From contig CAYGIH010000002.1 in assembly GCA_964349945.1 (NCBI GenBank), positions 46,937-110,936 on the forward strand: 64,000 nt of DNA, read 5' to 3'. This document shows, piece after piece, positions 5,029 to 56,825 of the stretch. Position 1 is the stretch's first letter; the number at the start of each line of letters is the position of its first letter. This DNA comes from an uncultured Candidatus Saccharibacteria bacterium. GTDB lineage: Bacteria; Patescibacteriota; Minisyncoccia; Phycocordibacterales; Zambryskibacteraceae. The notes beneath the pieces are model-generated. The model was given only the letters and a program-made list of their open reading frames with translations. It had not been told where the DNA came from and made no database searches. Made by a program: the position numbers and the translations under genes.

Positions 5029-5421
5029 TTATTCTGCTGATTTTTCCTCTTTGATCTCTTCGACATCCTTAGCCATACGAGTATTTCGCATTTGTCGTCT
5101 GATATCCTTGGCTGCTCGGTCTCTAATATGATAGAGCTTGGCTCGGCGAACTTTGGATCTCTTCACCACTTCTATCTTGTCTATCATTGGAGAATAAAGG
5201 AGAAAGGTTTTTTCTACACCTACTCCAGAAGAAACTCGACGAACAGTAAAGGTGGCTCCGGCCTCCTTGCCATGTTTCCTGGAGAGCACCAATCCTTCGA
5301 AAGCCTGTAGACGAGTCTTGCCCTTCTCTTGAATCTTCTGCCAAACACGAGCAGTATCGCCTGAACGTAGGTCAAGTTTCGCTCTTTCTTCTGTGTTTAC
5401 TGGTGAATGCACTGTTTTCAT
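5029..5421 (-). CDS. rplS: 50S ribosomal protein L19
   Basis: bL19-like sequence ([33 protein letters not shown]...). Confidence 0.9.
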
Positions 5422-5461
5422 AAGTCAGACTAATTTACCACAAGCACTGACCTGTGGCAAA

Positions 5462-5494
5462 TGAAAAGGGCGGTGTCTCCTAGAGACACCGCCC
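5462..5494 (-). terminator. Intrinsic terminator for the GC-rich small gene
   Basis: Perfect 12-bp stem GGGCGGTGTCTC/GAGACACCGCCC, with an A-run on the plus strand giving a U-run on the minus strand. Confidence 0.7.
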
Positions 5495-5509
5495 AACCCC
5501 AGAAAAGGT

Positions 5510-5800
5510 TCAAGCAGCAGAACGCGCCGCTGCCACCATCTGCTCGTACGCAGCCCGGAATCGTGCCTCGTGCTCAGGGCGATACTTGTACTCCGGACGA
5601 GGATCGTGGGGTTGCCCCTCGAGATACTGAGCCCTCGACGGCGACCCTTCGCACACCACCTTGCCATCTTCGATGATAGGCAGAAGGTGACGTGGCGAGC
5701 CGAACAGCATGATCGTCGGATCATTGGCAGCATAGGCTGCGAAGATCGCTGCATCATTGTTGCTTGGGACATGCTTGCCGCACTTGTCGCACTTCATCAT
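5510..5800 (-). CDS. Hypothetical small protein with an N-terminal CxxC (MMKCDKCGKH...), strongly GC-rich
   Basis: GC-rich 97-aa ORF with its own promoter and terminator. The start was chosen at MMKCDK, preceded by a GAGG RBS. Confidence 0.5.
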   Translation of the reverse strand: MMKCDKCGKHVPSNNDAAIFAAYAANDPTIMLFGSPRHLLPIIEDGKVVCEGSPSRAQYLEGQPHDPRPEYKYRPEHEARFRAAYEQMVAAARSAA

Positions 5801-5843
5801 GGTGGACCTCGTGCTTATGTGGAATAGTGAGCCATCTACATAT

Positions 5844-5872
5844 ATAATAGCACCAATACAGCTAAAAGTCAA
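5844..5872 (-). promoter_or_regulatory. Sigma70-like promoter (TTGACT-17-TATTAT) for the GC-rich small gene
   Basis: The reverse complement reads TTGACT tttagctgtattggtgc TATTAT. Confidence 0.5.
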
Positions 5873-10460: not shown

Positions 10461-10551
10461 GGAGGAGTGGCTCGAGCGGTTTAAGGCACCACTCTTGAAA
10501 AGTGGAATCTGGGCAACTGGATCGTGAGTTCGAATCTCACCTCCTCCGCCA
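10461..10551 (+). tRNA. tRNA-Ser (anticodon TGA), with long variable arm and encoded CCA
   Basis: GGAGGAGTGGCTCGAGCGGTTTAAGGCACCACTCTTGAAAAGTGG...GTTCGAATCTCACCTCCTCCGCCA, close to bacterial tRNA-Ser(UGA). Confidence 0.9.
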
Positions 10552-10638
10552 AAATTGTGATTCTTGATATTCTATATTTTTATGATATGGTTTGAACGGG
10601 TCGTTCTTTAGGCCCTCCCTCATCACAAGGAGTCCTGG

Positions 10639-11214
10639 ATGCGTATTCGTATGATGTCGCTCCTGTCCGCGGCGTTGCTCGCTGCGTGCACGAGCGAGCC
10701 CACTGCTCCAAAGGCGGTGGAGCAGGCTGTCTCCACTTCGAGTGACATGATGGCTCTCAAGGGTGGCAGCTGCACTCTCGCCGATGGTCGGGTTGTGGCT
10801 CCGGGCTTCAACGCCCTCGGTTACAACTACTGCGCCGGCCTTTTCAACGGCCCCGCGGATGGAACCGACAAGGTTCTCGACGGTAAGGTCTGGGGTGACC
10901 CAACCTATGCCGCAGATCACCTCGTCATGAAGTGGAACTCTGCATGGGATGCATGCAACGCAAATCGTAACGTCACGAACTGCACCGGCGCCTGGACCGA
11001 CAATGAATGGAATGGCAAGGTGGCCGGAGGAAGCGGAGAGTCCTGGCACTACAAGATCAAGTGGGTGGGCTCGTGCGGATCATACGGCACACCCCTCGCA
11101 AGTGGCGGATACTGCATCTGGAATGAATATGCAGTATTGTTTTCCCACGGGTCAGTGGCCAACCAACACTTCTGGGACACTCACGCCAAGCCGGCCGGCT
11201 ACGGCACCCAGTAA
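10639..11214 (+). CDS. GC-rich lipoprotein (signal peptide with LAAC lipobox), function unknown
   Basis: N-terminus MRIRMMSLLSAALLAAC. The CDS is much more GC-rich than its surroundings, with an AAGGAG RBS and a terminator after it. Confidence 0.55.
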   Translation: MRIRMMSLLSAALLAACTSEPTAPKAVEQAVSTSSDMMALKGGSCTLADGRVVAPGFNALGYNYCAGLFNGPADGTDKVLDGKVWGDPTYAADHLVMKWNSAWDACNANRNVTNCTGAWTDNEWNGKVAGGSGESWHYKIKWVGSCGSYGTPLASGGYCIWNEYAVLFSHGSVANQHFWDTHAKPAGYGTQ

Positions 11215-11224
11215 GATTTCCCAC

Positions 11225-11258
11225 GGGCGCGATGCAATAGCACGCGCTCTTTTTTTAT
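11225..11258 (+). terminator. Intrinsic terminator after the GC-rich lipoprotein gene
   Basis: GCGCG...CGCGC stem followed by TCTTTTTTT. Confidence 0.5.
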
Positions 11259-50440: not shown

Positions 50441-50800
50441 TTAGTTCATATGCTCTCTACAGGTACGAGCAGCAGGATTTGCAGAAAGTCTTTCTTCATC
50501 TATCATTTCTCCACAAACTTCACAAAGACCATAGTTATCTGATTCAATTTTTTCTAAGGCCAGTTTAACATCCCTGTATCTTGGTTCGAGTCTGTTCACT
50601 ATGGCATTATTGTCTTCATACTCAGAAATGTTATCAGCCTGATCGTTTTCATCTGGTTCGATTCCTCCATCCTTCTCCGGTACAGCTTCCCAGTCTTCTA
50701 GATTATCTGGATTTTTCCTTGCAACATTAGCAAGCTCTTTTTCTAAAGCTAATTTCTCTTCTTCAAGTTTGGTTTTTATTTGTTTAGTATCTATTGTCAT
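50441..50800 (-). CDS. DksA/TraR-family C4 zinc-finger protein
   Basis: Coiled-coil N-terminus and a C-terminal CEVCGEMI...CREH motif. Confidence 0.6.
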   Translation of the reverse strand: MTIDTKQIKTKLEEEKLALEKELANVARKNPDNLEDWEAVPEKDGGIEPDENDQADNISEYEDNNAIVNRLEPRYRDVKLALEKIESDNYGLCEVCGEMIDEERLSANPAARTCREHMN

Positions 50801-50831
50801 ACGACCATTCTATCAAACCAAAAAAATAGTG

Positions 50832-51767
50832 CTAGCGAGAAAGTTTTTCTGAATCAAGTCTATCCAAAATGATTTTTAAGGTGTTTTCGTTATCTGTGAT
50901 AATAAGCATATTGTTGTCATAAAAGGTATAAATGAGAACTGTTTGACCGGTTGAATTTTTTAGAATCCTCACATCTTTGTTTCTTATGATAAGGTCACCA
51001 AAGGTTGTTTGAGAAGGGACATTCTGGCTTACATCAAGAGGAACAAATAAAGGCAAAATGTCATCTGCCAAATCCATTTCCCATTTAAGCATGCCAGCGA
51101 AAGCTAGATCAAATGAGTCTAGTTTTATGAGAATAAAAGTATGCTTAGGGTTCATGTCAATCAATCCAAACATAAACAATGGATCGAAGGCCCGCACCAA
51201 GCTCCCCGGAGCACGGCTTCTGATTAGATTTAGAAAATCAGCAGTAGTGATTATTTCTGTAGTGGAACCAGAATTTTTTTCTAATTGAATTTGTTTAACT
51301 CCAGAACCAGTCATCGGAAGCCATTCGGATTGAATTTTTTGGATGAAGGAATCTCTGTTTAAAGTTAAAACATTTAATTTTTCATATTCTTCAGTAATAA
51401 GAAATCTGTTTGGAACAACTTGTGGTGAAGGGAGAGATGTTTTTGCCTTGTATGCTTTATATGCAAATAATGCTCCAGTAGTACCAAAACCAAAAAGCAC
51501 AATAATCCCTATTAAAAGCATGATGGTTTTTTTTCTTGATTCCCTTTCTGCTTTTTCTTCTGGAGAAAGAGTGATGCCTAGAGCTATATCTTCTGCATTT
51601 TTTTGTTCTTGGGCACGTTGAATAGAAATGAGTGTTTCATTTTGTTCTTCAATAGCCGAGGCTACATCTCCTTGAAAAGTACGAATTTGTTTAAGGAAGG
51701 TGTCCTCTGTTGTATTCTTATTTACTTCGTGCACATTTAAATCTGGCTGTTTTTCTACTGGCTCCAT
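50832..51767 (-). CDS. Hypothetical membrane-anchored protein
   Basis: Single TM helix after a ~90-aa cytoplasmic region. Confidence 0.3.
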   Translation of the reverse strand: MEPVEKQPDLNVHEVNKNTTEDTFLKQIRTFQGDVASAIEEQNETLISIQRAQEQKNAEDIALGITLSPEEKAERESRKKTIMLLIGIIVLFGFGTTGALFAYKAYKAKTSLPSPQVVPNRFLITEEYEKLNVLTLNRDSFIQKIQSEWLPMTGSGVKQIQLEKNSGSTTEIITTADFLNLIRSRAPGSLVRAFDPLFMFGLIDMNPKHTFILIKLDSFDLAFAGMLKWEMDLADDILPLFVPLDVSQNVPSQTTFGDLIIRNKDVRILKNSTGQTVLIYTFYDNNMLIITDNENTLKIILDRLDSEKLSR

Positions 51768-51781
51768 AAGTCTATTCTATC

Positions 51782-52324
51782 TTATCTTTGGTTTTTCCCA
51801 CGAGGTTTTCCTTCATTTGAATTTATTAGAAACTTTTTTGGATCTTTGTCTAAATCTAAGAAATCATCACATGCTTCTATGAGCTTTGATGAAGAAGATT
51901 TACCGAATGAAACCACTTCTACTTGAGTGCCGTGAGTGTTTTGTAAATACTCTATGAGTGAAACAAAATCTCCATCACCAGAACAGATGATGATTGTGTC
52001 GAGTCGAGGCGCGAGTTTGACTGCGTCTATGGCTAGGTCGATGTCCCAATTAGCCTTCTTGGCTCCGCCGATGAAAACTTGTAGAGGTTTGGTACGGGTT
52101 TCAATACCGACCTTAGAAAGAGCGTCAAAAAAACTTCCTTCATCTCCTGATTCAGTGGTGGCTACATAAGCAATAGCTCGCACGAGCACCCGTCCATCCA
52201 AGGCTTCTTTGAGTATGGCTCCAAAATTTGCTTTCGCATGATAAAGATTCTTCGCACTATGATAAAGGTTCTGTGTGTCTATGAATACGCCGACACGCTG
52301 AGCTTTGTGTTTTATTACTGACAT
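51782..52324 (-). CDS. NYN/LabA-like (PIN-fold) domain protein
   Basis: VGVFIDTQNLYHS...IICSGDGDF pattern. Confidence 0.65.
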   Translation of the reverse strand: MSVIKHKAQRVGVFIDTQNLYHSAKNLYHAKANFGAILKEALDGRVLVRAIAYVATTESGDEGSFFDALSKVGIETRTKPLQVFIGGAKKANWDIDLAIDAVKLAPRLDTIIICSGDGDFVSLIEYLQNTHGTQVEVVSFGKSSSSKLIEACDDFLDLDKDPKKFLINSNEGKPRGKNQR

Positions 52325-52390
52325 GAAAAATAACTTAGTAAACTATTATTAAAAATTCTGATTTCAAACACCCACTACTATAATAGTATC

Positions 52391-52657
52391 CTACTTCTTC
52401 AAACCGAGTTTCTTTTGAAGTGCGAGAGCGGCCTTTGGAGATTTTTTCTCTAGGTATTTCATATGAGCCTGGCGGTCAGCCACCATTGCGAGCAAACCTC
52501 GTCTTGAGTGGTTATCCTTGGCATTTTTCTTCAAATGAGCTGCAAGCTCCTCAATTCTCTTCGAAAGTATGGAAATTTGTACCGCAGCAGAGCCCGTATC
52601 CTTGTCGTGGATCTGAGCTTCTTTGATAGCTTTGGACTTTTTGGTCTTTGAAATCAT
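52391..52657 (-). CDS. rpsO: 30S ribosomal protein S15
   Basis: HSRRGLLAMV and the rest match uS15. Confidence 0.9.
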   Translation of the reverse strand: MISKTKKSKAIKEAQIHDKDTGSAAVQISILSKRIEELAAHLKKNAKDNHSRRGLLAMVADRQAHMKYLEKKSPKAALALQKKLGLKK

Positions 52658-52709
52658 CTAAAAACAATAGCATATAAGCCAATATTAAGCAAGTAAGCCG
52701 TTTTAGATA

Positions 52710-52735
52710 TAAAAAAGCCCGGTTTTACCCGGGCT
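52710..52735 (-). terminator. Intrinsic terminator after the DGQHR gene
   Basis: AGCCCGG ttttac CCGGGCT followed by a U-run on the minus strand. Confidence 0.65.
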
Positions 52736-52747
52736 GAAGGACAGACC

Positions 52748-53830
52748 TTATTCGGTCGGCTCTTCCGACTCATCCATGGACACAGCATCACCACGGCGAG
52801 AACGGATCCTCTTGGTCCGCTTGCCACTGTTGATGTGGTCACGCATGAGGATGTAGAGCATGTCAGCAGCCTTACCGTTGCCGGTGGCCAGACTGACGAT
52901 CTGCGGGTCGTTGATCGGGAAGAGAGAAATCTTGCGACGAAGCGACGCTTCGACGGTCAAGACCTTCTCATCCGACTCACGCCAGAAATCGTAATGATCC
53001 GACATGAGACGAGCGAGCACGTTCAGAAAGGTGCTCTTCACGTAGATGGCACCTTCACGATACTGGATGCGCTTGATTCCCCAGCACTCATCAACGAGCT
53101 GGAAAAAGGTCTTGGTATTCGATCGAAGGATCTGAACACCGAAGACATCAACCGCCTTATCGAGAGCAGGCACCAGTTCGTCAACGGAAGTCCGTCGCGC
53201 TGGAGCCTTGTGCGAATGCAGGTGACCAACCACCTTGAGCATGGTGAGAGCGGAGATGAGCTCCCCGCGGGTCATCCGCTGATTCCACGAGACACGGTCA
53301 TTCAGCGGGAAGCCCTTGTCGCTCGTCGAGAGCGAATAGAGGGTTGCCACTGAAGAACTGTCCTCTCGCCTGTTGCGCAGAATCACATTCGGCGACACCT
53401 TGTTGCGCAAGGTGTTCAAGATGCGGAAACGCTCCCGTTCCCACTCCTTGGTTGTGCCGAAGTGAATAGTCGCACCGAGTCGCACCTGCGCAGCTGAGTT
53501 CTGGGCCAGGAAGTGGATCGCACCATTGACGCGCTGAAGGCCGTCGATGATGTAAACCTCGTCCTTGAGCAGAGCCGTACCTTCCCTTTCGGAAAAGTTC
53601 TCACCGCGCATGCCGAGTTCGATGTCAGGAAGAGTTTCCCCTCCCTTGAGGGCTCCCAGAATGCTACTGAGAGCAGTGATCGGCGCAGCCTCACGCTGGT
53701 AGTCGTCGATCTTCAGGTGGACCAGACTATTCTGGTCGACCACACCACGCAGGACGATTTCCCCCTTTGGGGTTTCGTCGAGAGCGCAGTGGATGATGCG
53801 GATAGGCGCATCAGCCTTACGTGCGTTCAT
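52748..53830 (-). CDS. DGQHR/ParB-like-nuclease-fold protein (DndB/DUF262-related), GC-rich
   Basis: The motif YIIDGLQRVNGAIHFL matches the DGQ(H/Q)R signature of DndB/DUF262 ParB-fold proteins. The start was set at MNARKA, which follows a GGAG RBS. The CDS is strongly GC-rich. Confidence 0.55.
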   Translation of the reverse strand: MNARKADAPIRIIHCALDETPKGEIVLRGVVDQNSLVHLKIDDYQREAAPITALSSILGALKGGETLPDIELGMRGENFSEREGTALLKDEVYIIDGLQRVNGAIHFLAQNSAAQVRLGATIHFGTTKEWERERFRILNTLRNKVSPNVILRNRREDSSSVATLYSLSTSDKGFPLNDRVSWNQRMTRGELISALTMLKVVGHLHSHKAPARRTSVDELVPALDKAVDVFGVQILRSNTKTFFQLVDECWGIKRIQYREGAIYVKSTFLNVLARLMSDHYDFWRESDEKVLTVEASLRRKISLFPINDPQIVSLATGNGKAADMLYILMRDHINSGKRTKRIRSRRGDAVSMDESEEPTE

Positions 53831-53930
53831 TGCCCATCTCCATGTAATTGGGCTGTGAAAGAGCATCTCGGAGCAGTAGACTCAAAATGGTCTCTTATGT
53901 CCGAGGATTCGTCAACCGACGAAATCAAGA

Positions 53931-53962
53931 CGATTTTTACATATTTGTAGAGGGTTTGTCAA
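53931..53962 (-). promoter_or_regulatory. Sigma70-like promoter (TTGACA, ~17-nt spacer, TAAAAA/AAAAAT) for the DGQHR gene
   Basis: The reverse complement reads TTGACAaaccctctacaaatatgTAAAAAtcg. Confidence 0.4.
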
Positions 53963-53977
53963 TTATAAAATTAAGCA

Positions 53978-54019
53978 AAAGAAAACCGCGTTGCAGAGAA
54001 GGTTCTCTCTGCAACGCGG
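53978..54019 (-). terminator. Intrinsic terminator after the Pro-rich membrane protein gene
   Basis: Perfect 14-bp stem CCGCGTTGCAGAGA/TCTCTGCAACGCGG followed by a U-run. Confidence 0.65.
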
Positions 54020-54044
54020 GTACTAAGGTGCTTTGATTCTGGTG

Positions 54045-54848
54045 TTACGAACGCGCCGGCGGTGGCAACACGATGCGAGTGCCGTCCTCGTAGAAGAGAA
54101 CGACCTCATGCCGAACTGGCATAACGATCGACGGAGCCGGTGCCGGGGTCGGGGCAGGAACCGGAACGACAGGAGCCGGCGGAGCGACCACTGGGGTCGG
54201 CGTCGCGGGCACAGGCGTCGGTGCCGGAGCAACCGGAGCGGGTGCTGGCGTCTTGGGCGGAGTGTTCCGTCCGTTCAACCAGTTCCACAACTCACTCAGG
54301 AACCAGAAGATGACCGCGAGGAGCAGACCCAGGAAGAGAATGCTCAGCAGGAACTTGAAGAGGTCCCAAAGCCAGTTGGCGGCCCGTTCGAACCAGCCCC
54401 CATTCTGCTTTGCGAGCGTCTTGTTCACCGCCGTGTAGAGCTCCTTGTTCTGCTCCTTCATGGTGGCGACTTGCCGTTCGAGGTCCGCGAGCATCTCGCG
54501 ACATTTCGGGCACTCGCTCGCCTTCACGATGCGGTTGGTGCAATCCGCTTTGTAGCGGAGCGTACCATCCTGGTCGGCCCACACGATCGTGCCGCGCACG
54601 AGCGTCTCGAGGACGAAACGATTCGTGTTGTTGAAGTAGTTGAGCACCGTGACGGTGTCAGCGAGCTCAACGGCGTGCAGACCGAGCTTGGCCTGCATGG
54701 CCGGGGTCATCTCGCCCTGCTTCATGATCGGGTACTTGTTCAGCTCGGCCTCGGCCGGCGCTGCGTACGTTCCCCGCTGAGCCAGAGCGTTAGACGCTCC
54801 ACCGAAGGTGAGGACGACGATGAACATGGACAGCAAATACTTGCGCAT
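54045..54848 (-). CDS. GC-rich signal-peptide protein with an extracytoplasmic domain, a single TM helix and a Pro/Ala/Val/Thr-rich C-terminal tail
   Basis: MRKYLLSMFIVVLTFGGASNALA signal peptide, TM FKFLLSILFLGLLLAVIFWFL, and a PAPAPVAPAPTPVPATPTPVVAPPAPVV tail. Confidence 0.5.
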   Translation of the reverse strand: MRKYLLSMFIVVLTFGGASNALAQRGTYAAPAEAELNKYPIMKQGEMTPAMQAKLGLHAVELADTVTVLNYFNNTNRFVLETLVRGTIVWADQDGTLRYKADCTNRIVKASECPKCREMLADLERQVATMKEQNKELYTAVNKTLAKQNGGWFERAANWLWDLFKFLLSILFLGLLLAVIFWFLSELWNWLNGRNTPPKTPAPAPVAPAPTPVPATPTPVVAPPAPVVPVPAPTPAPAPSIVMPVRHEVVLFYEDGTRIVLPPPARS

Positions 54849-55006
54849 TTGTAGCTCCGTGGTGTGTGGTCTCTGAGTTGCGAACGATTCGCAACCAATG
54901 AATCAAAGTAAAGGTTCTTCGCACTATCTTTTTTAATATTAGCATATTCAAACCTATTTGTCAATAGAGCAAATAAAGCCTATAAATATGAGTAAATGTT
55001 ATAATA

Positions 55007-55939
55007 TTGTGCGACATGGCTACGACAGAACTTGAAAATTTAAAACGGCAATTTCTCGAACACACGGAGATTGAGAGAGGTCGTGCACTCAAAACTATTG
55101 AGAACTATGATCACTATCTCACTCGGTTTTTAACTTTTTCTAAAGCAAAGAATGCAAAGGATATAGATGAAAGTTTAATTAGAGAATTTAGGTTGTGGTT
55201 GAACAGACAATCAACAGGCAACAATAGAGCGACGAGGCAAACTCTTTCTAAAAAGACTCAGAATTATTATATGATTGCTCTTCGTGCGTTTTTAAAATTT
55301 TTGGCCAAAAAAGGAATCAAATCTCTTTCACCGGAAGTAATAGAATTAGCAAAAGTGCCTGAACGACACCTCGACCTCATCTCCCCTTCTGAACTCACTC
55401 GACTCCTCGATGCACCGAAGGGTGATGATTTAATTTCTCTCCGAGATAGAGCCATCTTAGAATTATTTTTCTCTACCGGTCTTCGTGTTTCTGAACTTGC
55501 GTCGCTTACAAATGATTTGGATTTAAAGGCTGATGAATTTTCTATCAGAGGTAAGGGCAGTAAAGTGCGTGTAGTTTTCCTTTCGGACGAAGCCAAGGAT
55601 GCTTTGAAGAAATATTTGGCTGCGAGGAAAGATATGAGTGATGCGATGTTTGTCTCTGTGGGTGGTGAGTCTAAGAAGAAAGAACCCACCCAACTCACTC
55701 GTCGGTCCATAGAGAGGTTAGTCAAAAAATATGCTATTAAGGCTGGGATATCGAAGAAAGTTACTCCTCACGTTATCCGCCACTCCTTCGCCACTGACCT
55801 ACTCTCGAACGGTGCAGACATAAGAAGTGTCCAAATGCTCCTTGGCCACGCGAACATCTCTACTACGCAGATTTATACACATGTGACAGACAAAGCCCTT
55901 CGAGACACCCACAAAAAATTCCACACAAGGAGAAAATAG
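55007..55939 (+). CDS. xerC: Tyrosine site-specific recombinase, XerC/XerD type
   Basis: C-terminal catalytic region HVIRHSFAT...LLGHANISTTQIYTHV with the catalytic Tyr. Confidence 0.8.
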   Translation: MCDMATTELENLKRQFLEHTEIERGRALKTIENYDHYLTRFLTFSKAKNAKDIDESLIREFRLWLNRQSTGNNRATRQTLSKKTQNYYMIALRAFLKFLAKKGIKSLSPEVIELAKVPERHLDLISPSELTRLLDAPKGDDLISLRDRAILELFFSTGLRVSELASLTNDLDLKADEFSIRGKGSKVRVVFLSDEAKDALKKYLAARKDMSDAMFVSVGGESKKKEPTQLTRRSIERLVKKYAIKAGISKKVTPHVIRHSFATDLLSNGADIRSVQMLLGHANISTTQIYTHVTDKALRDTHKKFHTRRK

Positions 55940-55945
55940 AATCGC

Positions 55946-55975
55946 TTGACAAATTCTGTGAAAGGTGTATTATTG
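55946..55975 (+). promoter_or_regulatory. Sigma70-like promoter (TTGACA-16-TATTAT) driving a non-coding transcript
   Basis: cTTGACAaattctgtgaaaggtgTATTATtg. Confidence 0.5.
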
Positions 55976-55979
55976 TACT

Positions 55980-56241
55980 TGGAAAGCAAAATCCCTCGTA
56001 ATCCGAGCTGTGAGTAAGTTTCTCTGAGTCTGGGCTCTGAATAGCCAGAATCAGTACTCACTAGGCCAATAGGCGGGTTTTAGGCTGATAGGTGTAGCGT
56101 TTGTGGTTAGGAAACAAGTCCACCACAGCGTGAATACTGTCAGCTGTGTTCAAATAAACTCTCTAATTTGAGAGCGATATACATACCGATTAGCAGAAAT
56201 GTTACAAAGCCCGCATCCAATTGGACGCGGGTTGATTTTTT
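55980..56241 (+). ncRNA. Candidate small RNA (~260 nt) bracketed by a promoter and an intrinsic terminator; identity unresolved
   Basis: No ORF of 60 aa or more. The terminator CCCGCATCC aatt GGACGCGGG is followed by TTGATTTTTT. An internal segment GAGTCTGGGCTCTGAATAGCCAG faintly resembles RNase P RNA CR-I (AGUCCGGGCUCCAUAGGGCAG). Confidence 0.35.
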
Positions 56242-56351
56242 ATATATCAATCACAAAAAATTCCATTCTAGAAGGAAATAGAGGTATAAATATAGGTTTT
56301 ATTGACTATTTACGGATTGATTTTTGTCCTGTTTTGGTGTATTATGGAGAG

Positions 56352-56650
56352 TAGTTTTCGATTGGATGCATCAATTTTGTCGATTTTTCTTACTTAGTGA
56401 CCTAAACGAGGAGAGGGGTCCGTTAGAAGATAAATCTGTCACAATTGACCCCGTTATGACAGGAATTCACCAATGGCATACATATGTCGGATGTGGATCA
56501 CTTTGAGAAACGGTAAGAAATACCGAAGACCAGATGGCAAGCCAATCTGTTGGGAGAACAGCAAATCTCCTAAAAAGGAAATCCCATCACTGGATGATGG
56601 GATGACCAAAGCTTAAGTTTGAAGGTAAAATCGTCCTCAGGGGCGGTTTT
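56352..56650 (+). ncRNA. Second candidate non-coding transcript downstream of a TTGATT-17-TATTAT promoter
   Basis: Several hairpins (CTGTCA...TGACAG; CCCATCA ctgga TGATGGG) with no convincing ORF. No clear terminator, so the 3' end is uncertain. Confidence 0.25.
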
Positions 56651-56722
56651 ACTTAACTAAGTTTACCTTATATATAATTATATATCTAATATATTGGGGA
56701 TAGCTCAAACACTTGAAAATAT

Positions 56723-56752
56723 TTGACAAAACTGGGTTGTTAGGTATATAAT
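56723..56752 (+). promoter_or_regulatory. Consensus sigma70 promoter (TTGACA-18-TATAAT) upstream of nusA, with a 5'-UTR hairpin
   Basis: TTGACAaaactgggttgttaggtaTATAAT. The leader forms the hairpin GAAGTTCGCC tcac GGCGGACTTC. Confidence 0.55.
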
Positions 56753-56825
56753 ACTGAGGTAATAAGTTTACGAGAAGTTCGCCTCACGGCGGACTTCTTT
56801 GTTAGAAGATTAATATATAAACATC

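What the first reader, a model, noticed from the sequence alone, without database searches (positions are those of the whole stretch)
52700..54900. Two-gene GC-rich islet: DGQHR/ParB-fold (DndB-like) protein plus a Pro-rich membrane protein, next to a XerC/D-type recombinase
A 360-aa protein carries the motif YIIDGLQR, matching the DGQ(H/Q)R signature of DndB/DUF262 ParB-like nuclease-fold proteins. That fold recurs in phosphorothioation-associated, BREX-associated and type IV restriction systems. It is followed by a GC-rich gene for a signal-peptide protein with one TM helix and a long PAPAPV-type tail. Each gene has its own AT-rich promoter and perfect-stem terminator. A tyrosine recombinase of XerC/D type begins ~150 bp beyond the islet. 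The partner protein is not a known Dnd, Ssp or BREX component. Either this is an undescribed two-component DNA-sensing/defense module or a stand-alone DndB-type regulator mobilised by Xer-mediated recombination.
Basis: partly seen in the sequence, partly recalled or inferred. Interest (0 to 1): 0.7.

Follow-up and report, generated by a model that had tools for sequence, protein, structure and literature searches.

The report
Phage-derived DndB-like gene cassette
The GC-rich islet is two unrelated foreign gene cassettes parked in a variable slot between the xer and rpsO genes of a Patescibacteria genome; one encodes an undescribed ParB-fold, DndB-like protein family that comes from phages and carries a new conserved RNA leader.

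Summary
A 2.2-kb GC-rich islet carries two minus-strand genes, each with its own promoter and terminator, about 170 bp from a Xer-type recombinase gene.

The two-gene-module reading fails. In syntenic relatives B occurs without A, A occurs without B, and other cargo fills the same xer–rpsO slot. In more than 100 other loci A stands alone.

Gene A encodes a ParB/Srx-fold protein with the three DGQHR-domain motifs (QR, DGxQR, FxxxN). It scores below the cutoffs of TIGR03187, PF14072 and PF03235. Its family has about 500 clusters at 50% identity, belongs to no curated library I searched, and did not turn up in my literature searches.

In metagenomic viral contigs and Acidobacteria, A has the local GC content and sits in phage replication/recombination modules. 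In Patescibacteria it is a roughly 1.2-kb single-gene GC-rich insertion under purifying selection.

Twenty A copies share a covarying 5′ leader RNA with no Rfam match.

No dif-like, att, inverted-repeat or target-duplication signal was found. Xer-mediated mobilisation is therefore unsupported, although the slot beside xer is a real hotspot.

The most likely function is an NTP-gated DNA-binding sensor or regulator of phage origin. That is inferred, not shown.

The parts
53933..53962 (-). Promoter of cassette A: TTGACA, 18-nt spacer, TG-extended -10.
   Evidence: Consensus scan. A TTGACA promoter sits at the same distance upstream of the leader in all 17 copies inspected.
53908..53923 (-). Leader hairpin P0 (UUCGUC-GGUU-GACGAA) at the 5' end of the A transcript.
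   Evidence: A hairpin of 3-8 bp with unrelated sequence ends within 4 nt of P1 in 18 of 20 leaders. Mean folding energy is -6.7 kcal/mol against -2.9 for shuffled sequences.
53866..53906 (-). Conserved leader RNA motif. Stem P1 (CUCGGA/UCCGAG) encloses an internal loop (5' side CAUA, 3' side GC) and stem P2, which has a bulged A. The nearly invariant letters are ACAUAAG and ACUGC, which span the loop and the two pairs that close P2.
   Evidence: The covariance model R1 finds 20 distinct instances, each directly upstream of an A gene, and none with E below 0.1 elsewhere in about 1.9 Mb. In the model-fitted alignment, 9-10 of 12 pairs show compensatory changes and 92% of cells pair, against 31-47% in slid controls. 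RNAalifold on an independent MAFFT alignment recovers the same 12 pairs. There is no Rfam match.
52748..53830 (-). Gene A: a 360-aa stand-alone ParB/Srx-fold protein of DGQHR/DndB/DUF262 type. Residues about 10-125 form the N-terminal fold and residues about 128-334 form a helical C-terminal domain.
52716..52735 (-). Intrinsic terminator of cassette A. The right-hand junction with the conserved rpsO promoter block follows its T-tract.
   Evidence: Junction alignment with L074, L077 and L079.
54936..54964 (-). Promoter of cassette B (TTGACA, 17 nt, TAATAT, TG-extended).
   Evidence: The promoter is conserved in L074, L077 and L079.
54045..54848 (-). Gene B: a 267-aa fast-evolving predicted type-I membrane or surface protein with a Pro/Ala-rich tail. 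It is an independent cassette resident in this lineage and is not a partner of A.
   Evidence: dN/dS is 0.35-0.45, against 0.015-0.03 for xer, rpsO and the NYN gene.
53986..54019 (-). Terminator of cassette B, a 15-bp perfect stem. The variable cargo slot begins just after its T-tract.
   Evidence: The stem is conserved, with covarying changes, in L074, L077 and L079.
55016..55939 (+). Xer-type tyrosine recombinase. It is a conserved backbone gene that forms one flank of the hotspot.
   Evidence: It is 98% identical to the L074 copy and holds the same position in L074-L080, L200, L201 and L205.
52391..52657 (-). rpsO (ribosomal protein S15) with its conserved promoter block at 52658-52710. It forms the other flank of the hotspot.

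Best explanation
The islet is two independent, self-contained expression cassettes lying side by side in a variable intergenic slot between the housekeeping xer gene and rpsO. The genome is from a Patescibacteria (Minisyncoccia-like) bacterium.

Cassette A consists of a promoter, a structured leader of about 100 nt, a 360-aa ORF and a terminator. Its protein is a distant stand-alone member of the DGQHR/DndB/DUF262 branch of the ParB/Srx fold. The family is native to replication and recombination modules of uncultivated phages and prophage-like elements of GC-richer bacteria. It has entered AT-rich Patescibacteria genomes many times as a single-gene unit of about 1.2 kb, is kept there under purifying selection, and is slowly losing GC.

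Inferred mechanism: the QR/DGxQR pocket binds and hydrolyses an NTP, and this gates DNA binding by the protein, as in DndB, KorB, ParB and the DUF262 sensors. In a phage, the protein would act on replicating or recombining DNA. In the Patescibacteria host, it most likely serves as a single-gene exclusion or defence factor, or as a gatekeeper of incoming DNA. Its expression is probably set after transcription, through the conserved leader, by autoregulation or by a ligand.

Cassette B is an unrelated, fast-evolving envelope protein that was already resident in this lineage.

Shown: anatomy, fold, motifs, distribution, composition, independence of A and B, the hotspot, and leader covariation. 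Inferred: NTP gating, DNA binding, the defence or exclusion role, and the regulatory role of the leader.
For: Independence of A and B and the hotspot. Syntenic relatives read xer-B-rpsO (L079/L080), xer-B-[GHKL-ATPase cargo]-rpsO (L074-L078), xer-A-220aa-rpsO (L200), xer-A-rpsO (L201/L202), and rpsO-132aa-A(inverted)-xer (L042).

Fold and motifs. The three DGQHR-domain motifs are defined in PMC4619093.

Family. There are 507 clusters at 50% identity, nearly all 280-420 aa and matched end to end apart from a few truncated sequences. The family has no Pfam, PHROGs or PADLOC membership.

Phage origin. Thirty-nine IMG/VR contigs carry A at the local GC content. It lies next to genes for an Erf-like annealing protein, RusA, DnaB, an HNH endonuclease and a DNA methyltransferase. 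In Acidobacteria the order is ParB_N-HTH | A | PD-(D/E)XK | AAA_24 | RecD2 | primase. Viral and Patescibacteria copies interleave in a neighbour-joining tree.

Foreignness in Patescibacteria. A forms single-gene islands of 1.1-1.3 kb that are 8-24 GC points above their flanks. Polarised synonymous changes show net GC-to-AT flux, for example 18 against 5 in the window lineage.

Selection. dN/dS is 0.06-0.09 in the closest pairs.

Leader.

The alternative cargo in the same slot has GHKL ATPases resembling defence proteins (TmtA and MzaB models). Horizontally transferred genes of Patescibacteria are reported to be enriched in defence functions (PMC12455944). Saccharibacteria, a Patescibacteria lineage, are reported to be naturally competent (PMC10633639, abstract).
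Against: No biochemical or genetic data exist for any member. No effector domain (DUF1524, HEPN or OLD) and no conserved partner gene was found in Patescibacteria. A lone sensor is therefore an incomplete defence system by the standards of GmrSD, SspE, Menshen and PD-T4-2.

The only PADLOC hit is weak (PD-T4-2_A, E=0.003). Most Patescibacteria insertions lie among housekeeping genes, not in defence islands.

The mechanism of movement is unknown.

Between the window, L200 and L201, A is about as diverged as the host flank genes. Part of the distribution may therefore be vertical, and the persistent high GC3 is then not fully explained.

The neighbour-joining tree has no support values, and the sequences are saturated at synonymous sites.
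Confidence: 0.55

Rival explanations
1. A and B form an undescribed two-component DNA-sensing or defence module, with the ParB-fold protein as sensor and the membrane protein as partner or effector.
For: The genes are adjacent, on the same strand, and both GC-rich. The same pair is present in two further assemblies of the same organism, L205 and L206.
Against: B has only 7 homologues among 5.8 billion clusters. In the five B-containing loci with context, three genome types lack A. A lacks B in L200-L204 and in all 73 genome, 39 viral and 80 metagenome loci. Each gene has its own promoter and terminator. B evolves at dN/dS 0.35-0.45, whereas A is at 0.06-0.09 in its closest pairs.
Confidence: 0.03
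2. The cassettes are inserted and exchanged by the adjacent Xer recombinase. Under this view they are elements that exploit Xer/dif recombination, or an integron-like array whose integrase is the xer gene.
For: The xer-rpsO gap holds at least six different cargo combinations in related genomes. It was also hit by a divergent A copy (43% identity) in the opposite orientation in another lineage, L042. Cassettes are mostly co-oriented and lie directly beside the divergently transcribed recombinase gene. A 21-nt block at the xer start is invariant, and its 10-nt core is exactly inverted in L201.
Against: No dif-like or other repeats flank the islet or either cassette. Across 30 loci the longest left/right shared word is no longer than in mismatched controls, 7.8 against 8.0 nt. 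The recombinase scores as Xer and falls below the integron-integrase cutoff, TIGR02249 138.9 bits against 265. A sits at more than 60 other sites with no xer nearby. Between the window and L074, xer, rpsO and the NYN gene are much less diverged (dS 0.44-0.77) than the next genes (dS 1.7-2.4). That pattern fits exchange of the slot by homologous recombination through conserved flanks.
Confidence: 0.12
3. A is a neutral passenger, a leftover of phage DNA taken up by a competent epibiont, with no function for the cell.
For: The gene is phage-native and compositionally foreign. At least one copy, in L041, is broken. The distribution among Patescibacteria is patchy.
Against: ORFs are intact, with 37 invariant residues, and dN/dS is 0.06-0.09 although synonymous sites are saturated. 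Promoter, leader and terminator are retained in genomes that are otherwise streamlined. The leader structure is maintained by compensatory changes.
Confidence: 0.12
4. A is an old, vertically inherited Patescibacteria gene. Its high GC is held by selection on the nucleic acid or by biased gene conversion, and is not a mark of transfer.
For: Between the window, L200 and L201, A is about as diverged as the flanking host genes. Synonymous sites are saturated, yet GC3 stays at 0.69-0.76. Several clades share synteny (L020/L022/L025, L026/L030, L034/L035).
Against: A is found in only about 55 Patescibacteria species genomes among the 185,579 species genomes of all phyla scanned, and at many unrelated sites. 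Copies with local GC content in viral contigs interleave with the Patescibacteria copies. The closest relatives of the window genome (xer 98% identical) lack A. Synonymous changes run net GC to AT: 16 against 1, 23 against 1, 21 against 2 and 18 against 5.
Confidence: 0.1

Closest known systems
DndB (DGQHR-domain protein of dnd phosphorothioation operons; TIGR03187 / PF14072)
   Same: It is a stand-alone protein of about 360 aa with an N-terminal ParB/Srx fold carrying the QR, DGxxR and FxxxN motifs, followed by an all-helical domain. There is no nuclease domain. DndB is an autoregulating DNA-binding repressor (PMC4507180). It is described as ATP-dependent and reported to bind ATP and GTP (bioRxiv 10.1101/2025.10.10.680097).
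   Different: Scores are far below the family cutoffs, 14.8 bits against 58.85 for TIGR03187. PF14072 is hit by only 9 of 41 members. The pentapeptide reads DG(L/Q)QR, not DGQHR. No dndCDE, ssp or dpd genes are nearby in any locus. The native context is phage replication and recombination modules. Any regulation appears to act through an RNA leader and not through a palindromic operator.
DUF262 sensor proteins that lack DUF1524: NsnA of Menshen, PD-T4-2 protein A, Dazbog
   Same: These have a ParB-DUF262 domain with a DGxQR nucleotide pocket followed by a helical domain (PMC12065111), and no His-Me nuclease domain. A has a weak PADLOC match to PD-T4-2_A, a profile of similar length (363 positions).
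   Different: Those proteins work with partner genes: an ABC ATPase plus a nuclease, a HEPN protein, and so on. A has no conserved partner in Patescibacteria. The PADLOC match is E=0.003 over 72 residues only.
GmrSD / BrxU / SspE (DUF262-DUF1524 type IV restriction or phosphorothioate-sensing nucleases)
   Different: A has no DUF1524 or HNH-type nuclease domain and is about 200 residues shorter.
ParB / KorB / Noc CTP-dependent DNA clamps
   Different: A has no helix-turn-helix DNA-binding domain, no ParA partner and no GERRxR box. Sequence similarity is undetectable with a PDB profile search.
Phage morons and single-gene cargo at core-gene-flanked integration hotspots
   Same: The unit is an autonomous promoter-ORF-terminator of foreign composition, inserted between conserved genes. 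The same slot holds alternative cargo in close relatives.
   Different: Here the host is a streamlined Patescibacteria chromosome and not a prophage. The same cassette recurs at many sites. It carries a conserved structured leader.

Membership tests
DGQHR domain / DndB (TIGR03187, PF14072) | Profile score at or above the curated cutoff. | tested here: not met
   The window protein scores 14.8 bits (E=0.018) against a cutoff of 58.85. Thirty-six of 41 members hit at E<=1, the best at 2.1e-07. PF14072 is hit by 9 of 41 members, the best at 8.5e-05, all below the gathering score.
DGQHR domain / DndB (TIGR03187, PF14072) | The three signature motifs listed in PMC4619093: a QR pair, the DGQHR pentapeptide, and FxxxN. 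| tested here: met
   Q45 R46, D96 G97 Q99 R100, and F135 N139 are invariant in 41 sequences. The pentapeptide is DG(L/Q)QR, which is the DUF262 variant with Q in place of H.
DGQHR domain / DndB (TIGR03187, PF14072) | ParB/Srx fold. | tested here: met
DGQHR domain / DndB (TIGR03187, PF14072) | Location in a dnd, dpd or ssp DNA-modification operon. | tested here: not met
   Clustering of neighbours in 73 genome and 39 viral loci shows no such genes.
GmrSD-type DUF262-DUF1524 enzymes (PF03235 + PF07510) | A C-terminal DUF1524 His-Me nuclease domain, or a separate GmrD partner. | tested here: not met
   No Pfam hit beyond sub-threshold PF03235. The C-terminal half is all-helical with no nuclease match.
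Known DUF262 defence systems (Menshen, PD-T4-2, Dazbog) | A conserved partner gene (ABC ATPase plus nuclease, HEPN, etc.) next to the DUF262 gene. | tested here: not met
   There is no conserved neighbour in Patescibacteria apart from an unannotated 255-aa ORF in 6 loci. PADLOC gives only PD-T4-2_A at E=0.003.
Known DUF262 defence systems (Menshen, PD-T4-2, Dazbog) | Protection against phage. | not testable with these tools
   This needs cloning and phage challenge.
Xer-exploiting integrative element | The element is flanked by dif-like sites, giving a duplicated 28-31-bp core. | tested here: not met
   No such repeats occur around 52700-54900 or around either cassette. The junction alignments show only promoter and terminator homology. 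There is no excess of left/right shared words in 30 loci.
Integron | An IntI-type integrase and attC sites bounding the cassettes. | tested here: not met
   TIGR02249 scores 138.9 bits against a cutoff of 265, and the XerD and XerC models score higher. The cassette ends are ordinary hairpins with T-tracts, with no R''/R' boxes seen by eye.
Described RNA families (Rfam 15) | A match of the leader to any covariance model. | tested here: not met
   No hit covers 53831-53962, even at E<=10. A gathering-threshold scan of the window finds only tRNAs.

The most novel reading that the evidence does not exclude
Cassette A is an undescribed kind of autonomous single-gene unit made of a promoter, a new structured regulatory RNA, a DndB-like NTP-gated DNA sensor and a terminator. 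It shuttles between phages of GC-rich bacteria and Patescibacteria and lands repeatedly in a few intergenic hotspots, one of them beside xer. The protein works alone as an immunity factor or gatekeeper of incoming DNA in cells that live by taking up foreign DNA. The leader is a new riboswitch or autoregulatory element.
Probability: 0.2. Interest if true: 0.8.

Novelty: new variant of a known kind. Interest (0 to 1): 0.5.

Why it matters
Patescibacteria make up a large share of bacterial diversity, have tiny genomes and mostly lack CRISPR, and at least one lineage (Saccharibacteria) is reported to be naturally competent. What they keep from foreign DNA is therefore informative.

This work defines a compact, uncharacterised protein family of about 500 clusters in the ParB/DndB/DUF262 superfamily. 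It is absent from Pfam, NCBIfam, PHROGs and PADLOC by their own cutoffs, and from 50,697 GenBank phage genomes and 72,556 plasmids. The family links phage replication modules to single-gene acquisitions in Patescibacteria.

The work also yields a small RNA motif with clear covariation that is ready for in-line probing, and a concrete integration hotspot with both empty and occupied sites.

If the protein proves to be a single-gene DNA sensor, it would show what a DUF262/DndB module does on its own, which remains open for Menshen, Dazbog and PD-T4-2.

Tried and rejected
1. Two-gene module: rejected by context look-ups.

2. dif or att repeats, inverted terminal repeats and target duplications: the repeat finder on the islet and a longest-common-word test on 30 loci against mismatched controls gave nothing above chance. 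The 9-nt TTGCTTAAT repeat flanking A in the window is at chance level.

3. A match to E. coli-type dif in the xer-B spacer: inspected by eye in the aligned spacers, with no convincing two-arm site. The invariant 21-mer overlaps the xer -10 box and start codon.

4. Rfam for the leader and the islet: no hit.

5. PHROGs for A, B and the c8 ORF: no hit for A or c8, and only weak hits (best E=0.0018) for B. PADLOC gave only a weak PD-T4-2_A hit for A and none for B.

6. A sequence profile of the family against the PDB found nothing relevant.

7. tblastn of A against GenBank phages and PLSDB plasmids found no match.

9. Long antisense ORFs over A in 18 loci were treated as a by-product of high GC. 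The window has none that is conserved.

10. The idea that high GC3 is held purely by selection was weakened by the net GC-to-AT flux, but it is not excluded.

11. Literature: no paper in the library combines Patescibacteria with DndB.
Full report
**1. What is there**

The window has 39.3% GC overall. Between about 52,750 and 54,850 the GC content rises to 0.55-0.63, with sharp edges.

Two minus-strand genes fill this stretch.
- Gene A is 52748-53830 and encodes 360 aa.
- Gene B is 54045-54848 and encodes 267 aa.

Third-position GC is 0.69 for A and 0.80 for B. Six neighbouring genes have 0.28-0.49.

A contains DDYQRE and VYIIDGLQRV. Read from its translation, B has an N-terminal signal-like segment, a Cys-containing ectodomain, one hydrophobic helix and a long PAPAPV-type tail.

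A consensus scan finds a TTGACA/TG-extended promoter and a hairpin-plus-T-tract terminator for each gene.

The flanks are housekeeping genes.
- On one side lie rpsO, an NYN-domain gene, a DksA-like gene and a ComM-like gene.
- On the other side lie a Xer-type tyrosine recombinase, with its ATG at 55016, and nusA.

**2. A and B are not a module**

B has only seven homologues in 5.8 billion protein clusters. A has 548 at E<=0.001.

Looking up the contigs that encode the B homologues gave genomes with the same backbone: xer, then the slot, then rpsO, NYN, a 311-aa gene, DksA and ComM. The slot content differs between them.
- L079/L080: xer-B-rpsO, with nothing else in the slot.
- L074-L076: xer-B-[249 aa + 570-aa HATPase_c_3 protein + 150 aa]-rpsO.
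- L077/L078: a related four-gene cargo.

Looking up close A homologues gave the following arrangements.
- L200 (A 79% identical): xer-[small ORF]-A-[220 aa]-rpsO, without B.
- L201/L202 (A 63%): xer-A-rpsO, without B.
- L203/L204 (A 64%): a radical-SAM gene, then A, then rpoB, which is an unrelated site.
- L042, from another lineage: a 43%-identical A between rpsO and xer in the opposite orientation.

In 73 species-representative genomes no gene related to B lies near A.

A and B are therefore independent cassettes. The xer-rpsO gap is a cargo slot with at least six different fillings.

The GHKL ATPases of the alternative cargo give weak matches to defence-system models (TmtA, MzaB and GHKL-type restriction enzymes).

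**3. The junctions**

Alignment of the window with L074, L077 and the empty site in L079 shows where homology is kept.
- On the left, homology runs through B, its 15-bp-stem terminator and about 25 nt beyond, into the -35 region of the next promoter.
- On the right, homology resumes at the T-tract of the last terminator, just before the conserved rpsO promoter block.

No dif-like site, direct repeat or inverted repeat marks either boundary. Across 30 Patescibacteria loci, the longest word shared by the left and right flanks of A is no longer than in mismatched controls, 7.8 against 8.0 nt.

The recombinase scores as XerD, XerC or XerA and falls below the integron-integrase cutoff. It is 98% identical between the window and L074, which lacks A.

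Between those two genomes the divergence is uneven.
- xer, rpsO and NYN have dS 0.44-0.77.
- The next genes have dS 1.7-2.4.

This suggests that the whole slot travels between relatives by homologous recombination through its conserved flanks.

Xer-mediated insertion is therefore unsupported. It is not strictly excluded for this one locus.

**4. What protein A is**

An AlphaFold2 model built from a 41-sequence alignment is confident, with mean pLDDT 88.

Foldseek agrees. Among predicted viral structures, the matches are proteins annotated as GmrSD N-terminal, 'DNA-sulfur modification-associated', or ParB/sulfiredoxin. Several align over the full length at TM 0.4-0.6.

At sequence level the window protein scores 14.8 bits on TIGR03187, whose cutoff is 58.85. 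The signal is nonetheless consistent across the family.
- 36 of 41 members hit TIGR03187, the best at 2e-07.
- 24 of 41 hit PF03235.
- 9 of 41 hit PF14072.
- 2 of 41 hit DpdB.

The three motifs that define the DGQHR domain are a QR pair, the pentapeptide and FxxxN (PMC4619093). All are present and invariant: Q45 R46, D96 G97 x Q99 R100, and F135 N139. The pentapeptide is in the DG(L/Q)QR form typical of DUF262.

Residues about 128-334 are all-helical. This fits the helical domain that follows ParB-DUF262 in DndB, NsnA, GmrSD and SspE (PMC12065111). I could not test that equivalence directly because AFDB50 was unavailable.

There is no nuclease domain.

An exhaustive HMMER search of 1.84 billion representative proteins finds 507 clusters, 351 of them at E<=1e-30. 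Nearly all are 280-420 aa and matched end to end, apart from a few truncated sequences. This is a compact, single-architecture family that does not merge with the large DndB and DUF262 families.

The family has no PHROG. It has no homologue in 50,697 GenBank phage genomes or 72,556 plasmids. No paper in the library links it to Patescibacteria.

**5. Where the family lives**

In 39 IMG/VR viral contigs, the GC content of the gene equals that of its surroundings.

There it sits among genes confirmed by PHROGs as an Erf-like annealing protein, a RusA resolvase, a DnaB-like helicase, an HNH endonuclease, a DNA methyltransferase and a phage ATPase.

In Acidobacteria (Bryobacterales and Solibacter MAGs, several also present as viral contigs), a conserved block reads ParB_N-HTH | A | PD-(D/E)XK nuclease | AAA_24 | RecD2-type helicase | DnaG-like primase. 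Here too A has the local GC content.

In Patescibacteria the picture is different. A is an island of 1.1-1.3 kb that is 8-24 GC points above its flanks. It lies at many different sites, mostly among housekeeping genes, with no conserved neighbour.

In a neighbour-joining tree the viral copies interleave with the Patescibacteria copies. The tree has no support values.

Synonymous changes polarised with an outgroup run mostly from GC to AT.
- Window lineage: 18 against 5
- L026: 16 against 1
- L030: 23 against 1
- L024: 21 against 2

This is what amelioration of a foreign gene predicts.

The gene is not decaying. dN/dS is 0.06-0.09 in the closest pairs. One broken copy, in L041, was seen.

**6. 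A new leader RNA**

Reading the upstream regions showed that the clade containing the window copy shares a fixed layout.
- A TTGACA promoter.
- A hairpin (P0) of variable sequence.
- A motif of about 40 nt in which stem P1 encloses an internal loop and stem P2. The loop is CAUA on the 5' side and GC on the 3' side, and P2 has a bulged A. The nearly invariant letters ACAUAAG and ACUGC span the loop and the two pairs that close P2.
- A GUUCUU-like tract.
- CCCAAC, the Shine-Dalgarno sequence and the start codon, 31-58 nt downstream.

I built a covariance model from 13 copies. It found seven further distinct copies. Every hit with E below 0.1 lies directly upstream of an A gene and on the sense strand, within about 1.9 Mb of held sequence.

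On 20 distinct sequences, 92% of cells pair, against 31-47% when partners are slid. Nine of 12 pairs show compensatory changes. No shuffle out of 500 reaches the observed covariation score (one search gives 10 of 12 pairs on 17 sequences).

That alignment is fitted to the model. RNAalifold on an independent MAFFT alignment of the whole leaders nevertheless returns the same 12 pairs.

G-U pairs are frequent: 12 of 20 at one pair and 9 of 20 at another. This places the structure on the sense strand, as expected for RNA.

P0 forms in 18 of 20 leaders, with mean energy -6.7 kcal/mol against -2.9 for shuffled sequences.

Rfam has no match. The minimum-free-energy fold of the window leader alone does not show P1 and P2, so the evidence is comparative.

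A motif confined to one gene family points to autoregulation or a dedicated ligand. Which of the two applies is unknown.

**7. Mechanism**

Shown:
- the fold
- the intact nucleotide-pocket motifs
- the stand-alone architecture
- the phage-module origin
- the foreign composition
- purifying selection
- the autonomous expression signals
- the conserved leader

Inferred from established knowledge of the superfamily:
- The DGxQR/QR pocket binds and hydrolyses an NTP.
- This switches the protein's engagement with DNA.

That knowledge comes from ParB and KorB CTP switches, from DndB as an ATP-modulated autoregulating repressor, and from DUF262 as an NTPase sensor in GmrSD, BrxU and SspE (PMC4507180, PMC10952713, PMC12065111, bioRxiv 10.1101/2025.10.10.680097).

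I judge the most likely role in the Patescibacteria cell to be exclusion of, or defence against, phage or other incoming DNA. About one chance in three seems right. The reasons are:
- the superfamily's record in defence systems
- the defence-like alternative cargo in the same slot
- the reported enrichment of defence genes among horizontally acquired Patescibacteria genes (PMC12455944)
- the tight expression control implied by the leader

Against this, there is no effector domain or partner, and most insertion sites are not defence islands.

**8. Verdict**

- The two-component reading is refuted.
- 'Stand-alone DndB-type protein' is supported at the level of fold and motifs, but the protein is not a member of the curated families.
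- Xer mobilisation is unsupported.
- New here are an undescribed family within a known superfamily, its phage-to-Patescibacteria history as a single-gene cassette, a cargo hotspot beside xer with an identified empty site, and a covarying leader RNA.
- How the cassette moves and what the protein does remain open.

Noticed in passing
window 5400-5870 and 10550-11250: There are two more small GC-rich single-ORF islets, at GC 0.55-0.61 against about 0.35 nearby. One lies beside rplS (ORF 5425-5772, minus strand, 115 aa). The other lies directly after a tRNA at 10461-10548 (ORF 10639-11214, plus strand, 191 aa). Neither has a Pfam hit. The genome seems peppered with such insertions.
   Followed up: partly
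window ~54850-55015 (xer/B gap), seen against the whole window: Gene orientation and GC skew both switch here. Genes at 28-54.8 kb are mostly on the minus strand and all large ORFs at 55-64 kb are on the plus strand. The cumulative GC skew reaches its minimum at about 47-55 kb. This looks like the divergence point of a replication origin, but no cluster of DnaA boxes was seen.
   Followed up: partly
window 54996-55016; L201 2530-2560: A 21-nt block (ATGTTATAATATTGTGCGACA) spanning the xer -10 box and start codon is identical in eight loci. In L201 the 10 nt between TATAAT and the ATG are the exact reverse complement, GTCGCACAAT instead of ATTGTGCGAC. L041 has ATTGTGCGACAT further upstream of xer.
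   Followed up: partly
window 55940-56825: An 886-bp stretch between xer and nusA has no ORF longer than about 60 aa, which is unusually long for this compact genome. It has no Rfam hit at gathering threshold.
   Followed up: no
L074 3340-6364; L077 2073-5109: This is the alternative cargo in the same xer-B...rpsO slot. It consists of a protein of about 250 aa, a HATPase_c_3 (GHKL) ATPase of 397-570 aa with weak matches to the TmtA and MzaB defence models and to GHKL-type restriction enzymes, and a separately promoted lysine-rich gene of 150-166 aa. All are GC-rich relative to the backbone.
   Followed up: partly
window 54045-54848 versus L074, L077 and L079: B evolves much faster than its neighbours at similar synonymous divergence. 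Its dN/dS is 0.35-0.45, against 0.015-0.03 for xer, rpsO and NYN. It stays GC-rich (GC3 0.69-0.80) in every genome. This would fit a surface protein under diversifying pressure.
   Followed up: partly
window 50441-55939 versus L074: Divergence is mosaic. xer, rpsO and NYN are 98-99% identical in protein (dS 0.44-0.77). The adjacent 311-aa and DksA-like genes are only 75-78% identical (dS 1.7-2.4). This suggests a recombination tract that includes the cargo slot.
   Followed up: no
L019 versus L057; L013 versus L023/L028: Divergent A copies from different tree clades lie in the same gene neighbourhoods in unrelated genomes, clusters c61/c62 and c55/c15. The xer-rpsO slot may therefore not be the only recurrent landing site.
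   Followed up: no
L026, L029, L030, L043, L049, L052 (for example L030 7004-7780): In one A clade the GC-rich island extends about 700 bp downstream to include a 220-260-aa ORF (484 aa as called in L043), called cluster c8. It has no Pfam, PHROGs or PADLOC hit and is a possible clade-specific partner of A.
   Followed up: partly
L041 5968-7400: The A copy in this genome is interrupted, giving 234 aa plus fragments. It lies between NYN/rpsO and xer and is a probable pseudogene.
   Followed up: no
L004 (DATDVW010000028.1): One A-bearing contig is labelled Candidatus Nanoarchaeia. Several others are labelled Gammaproteobacteria or Bdellovibrionales but have Patescibacteria-like flanks. The bin labels for this family should not be taken at face value.
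   Followed up: no
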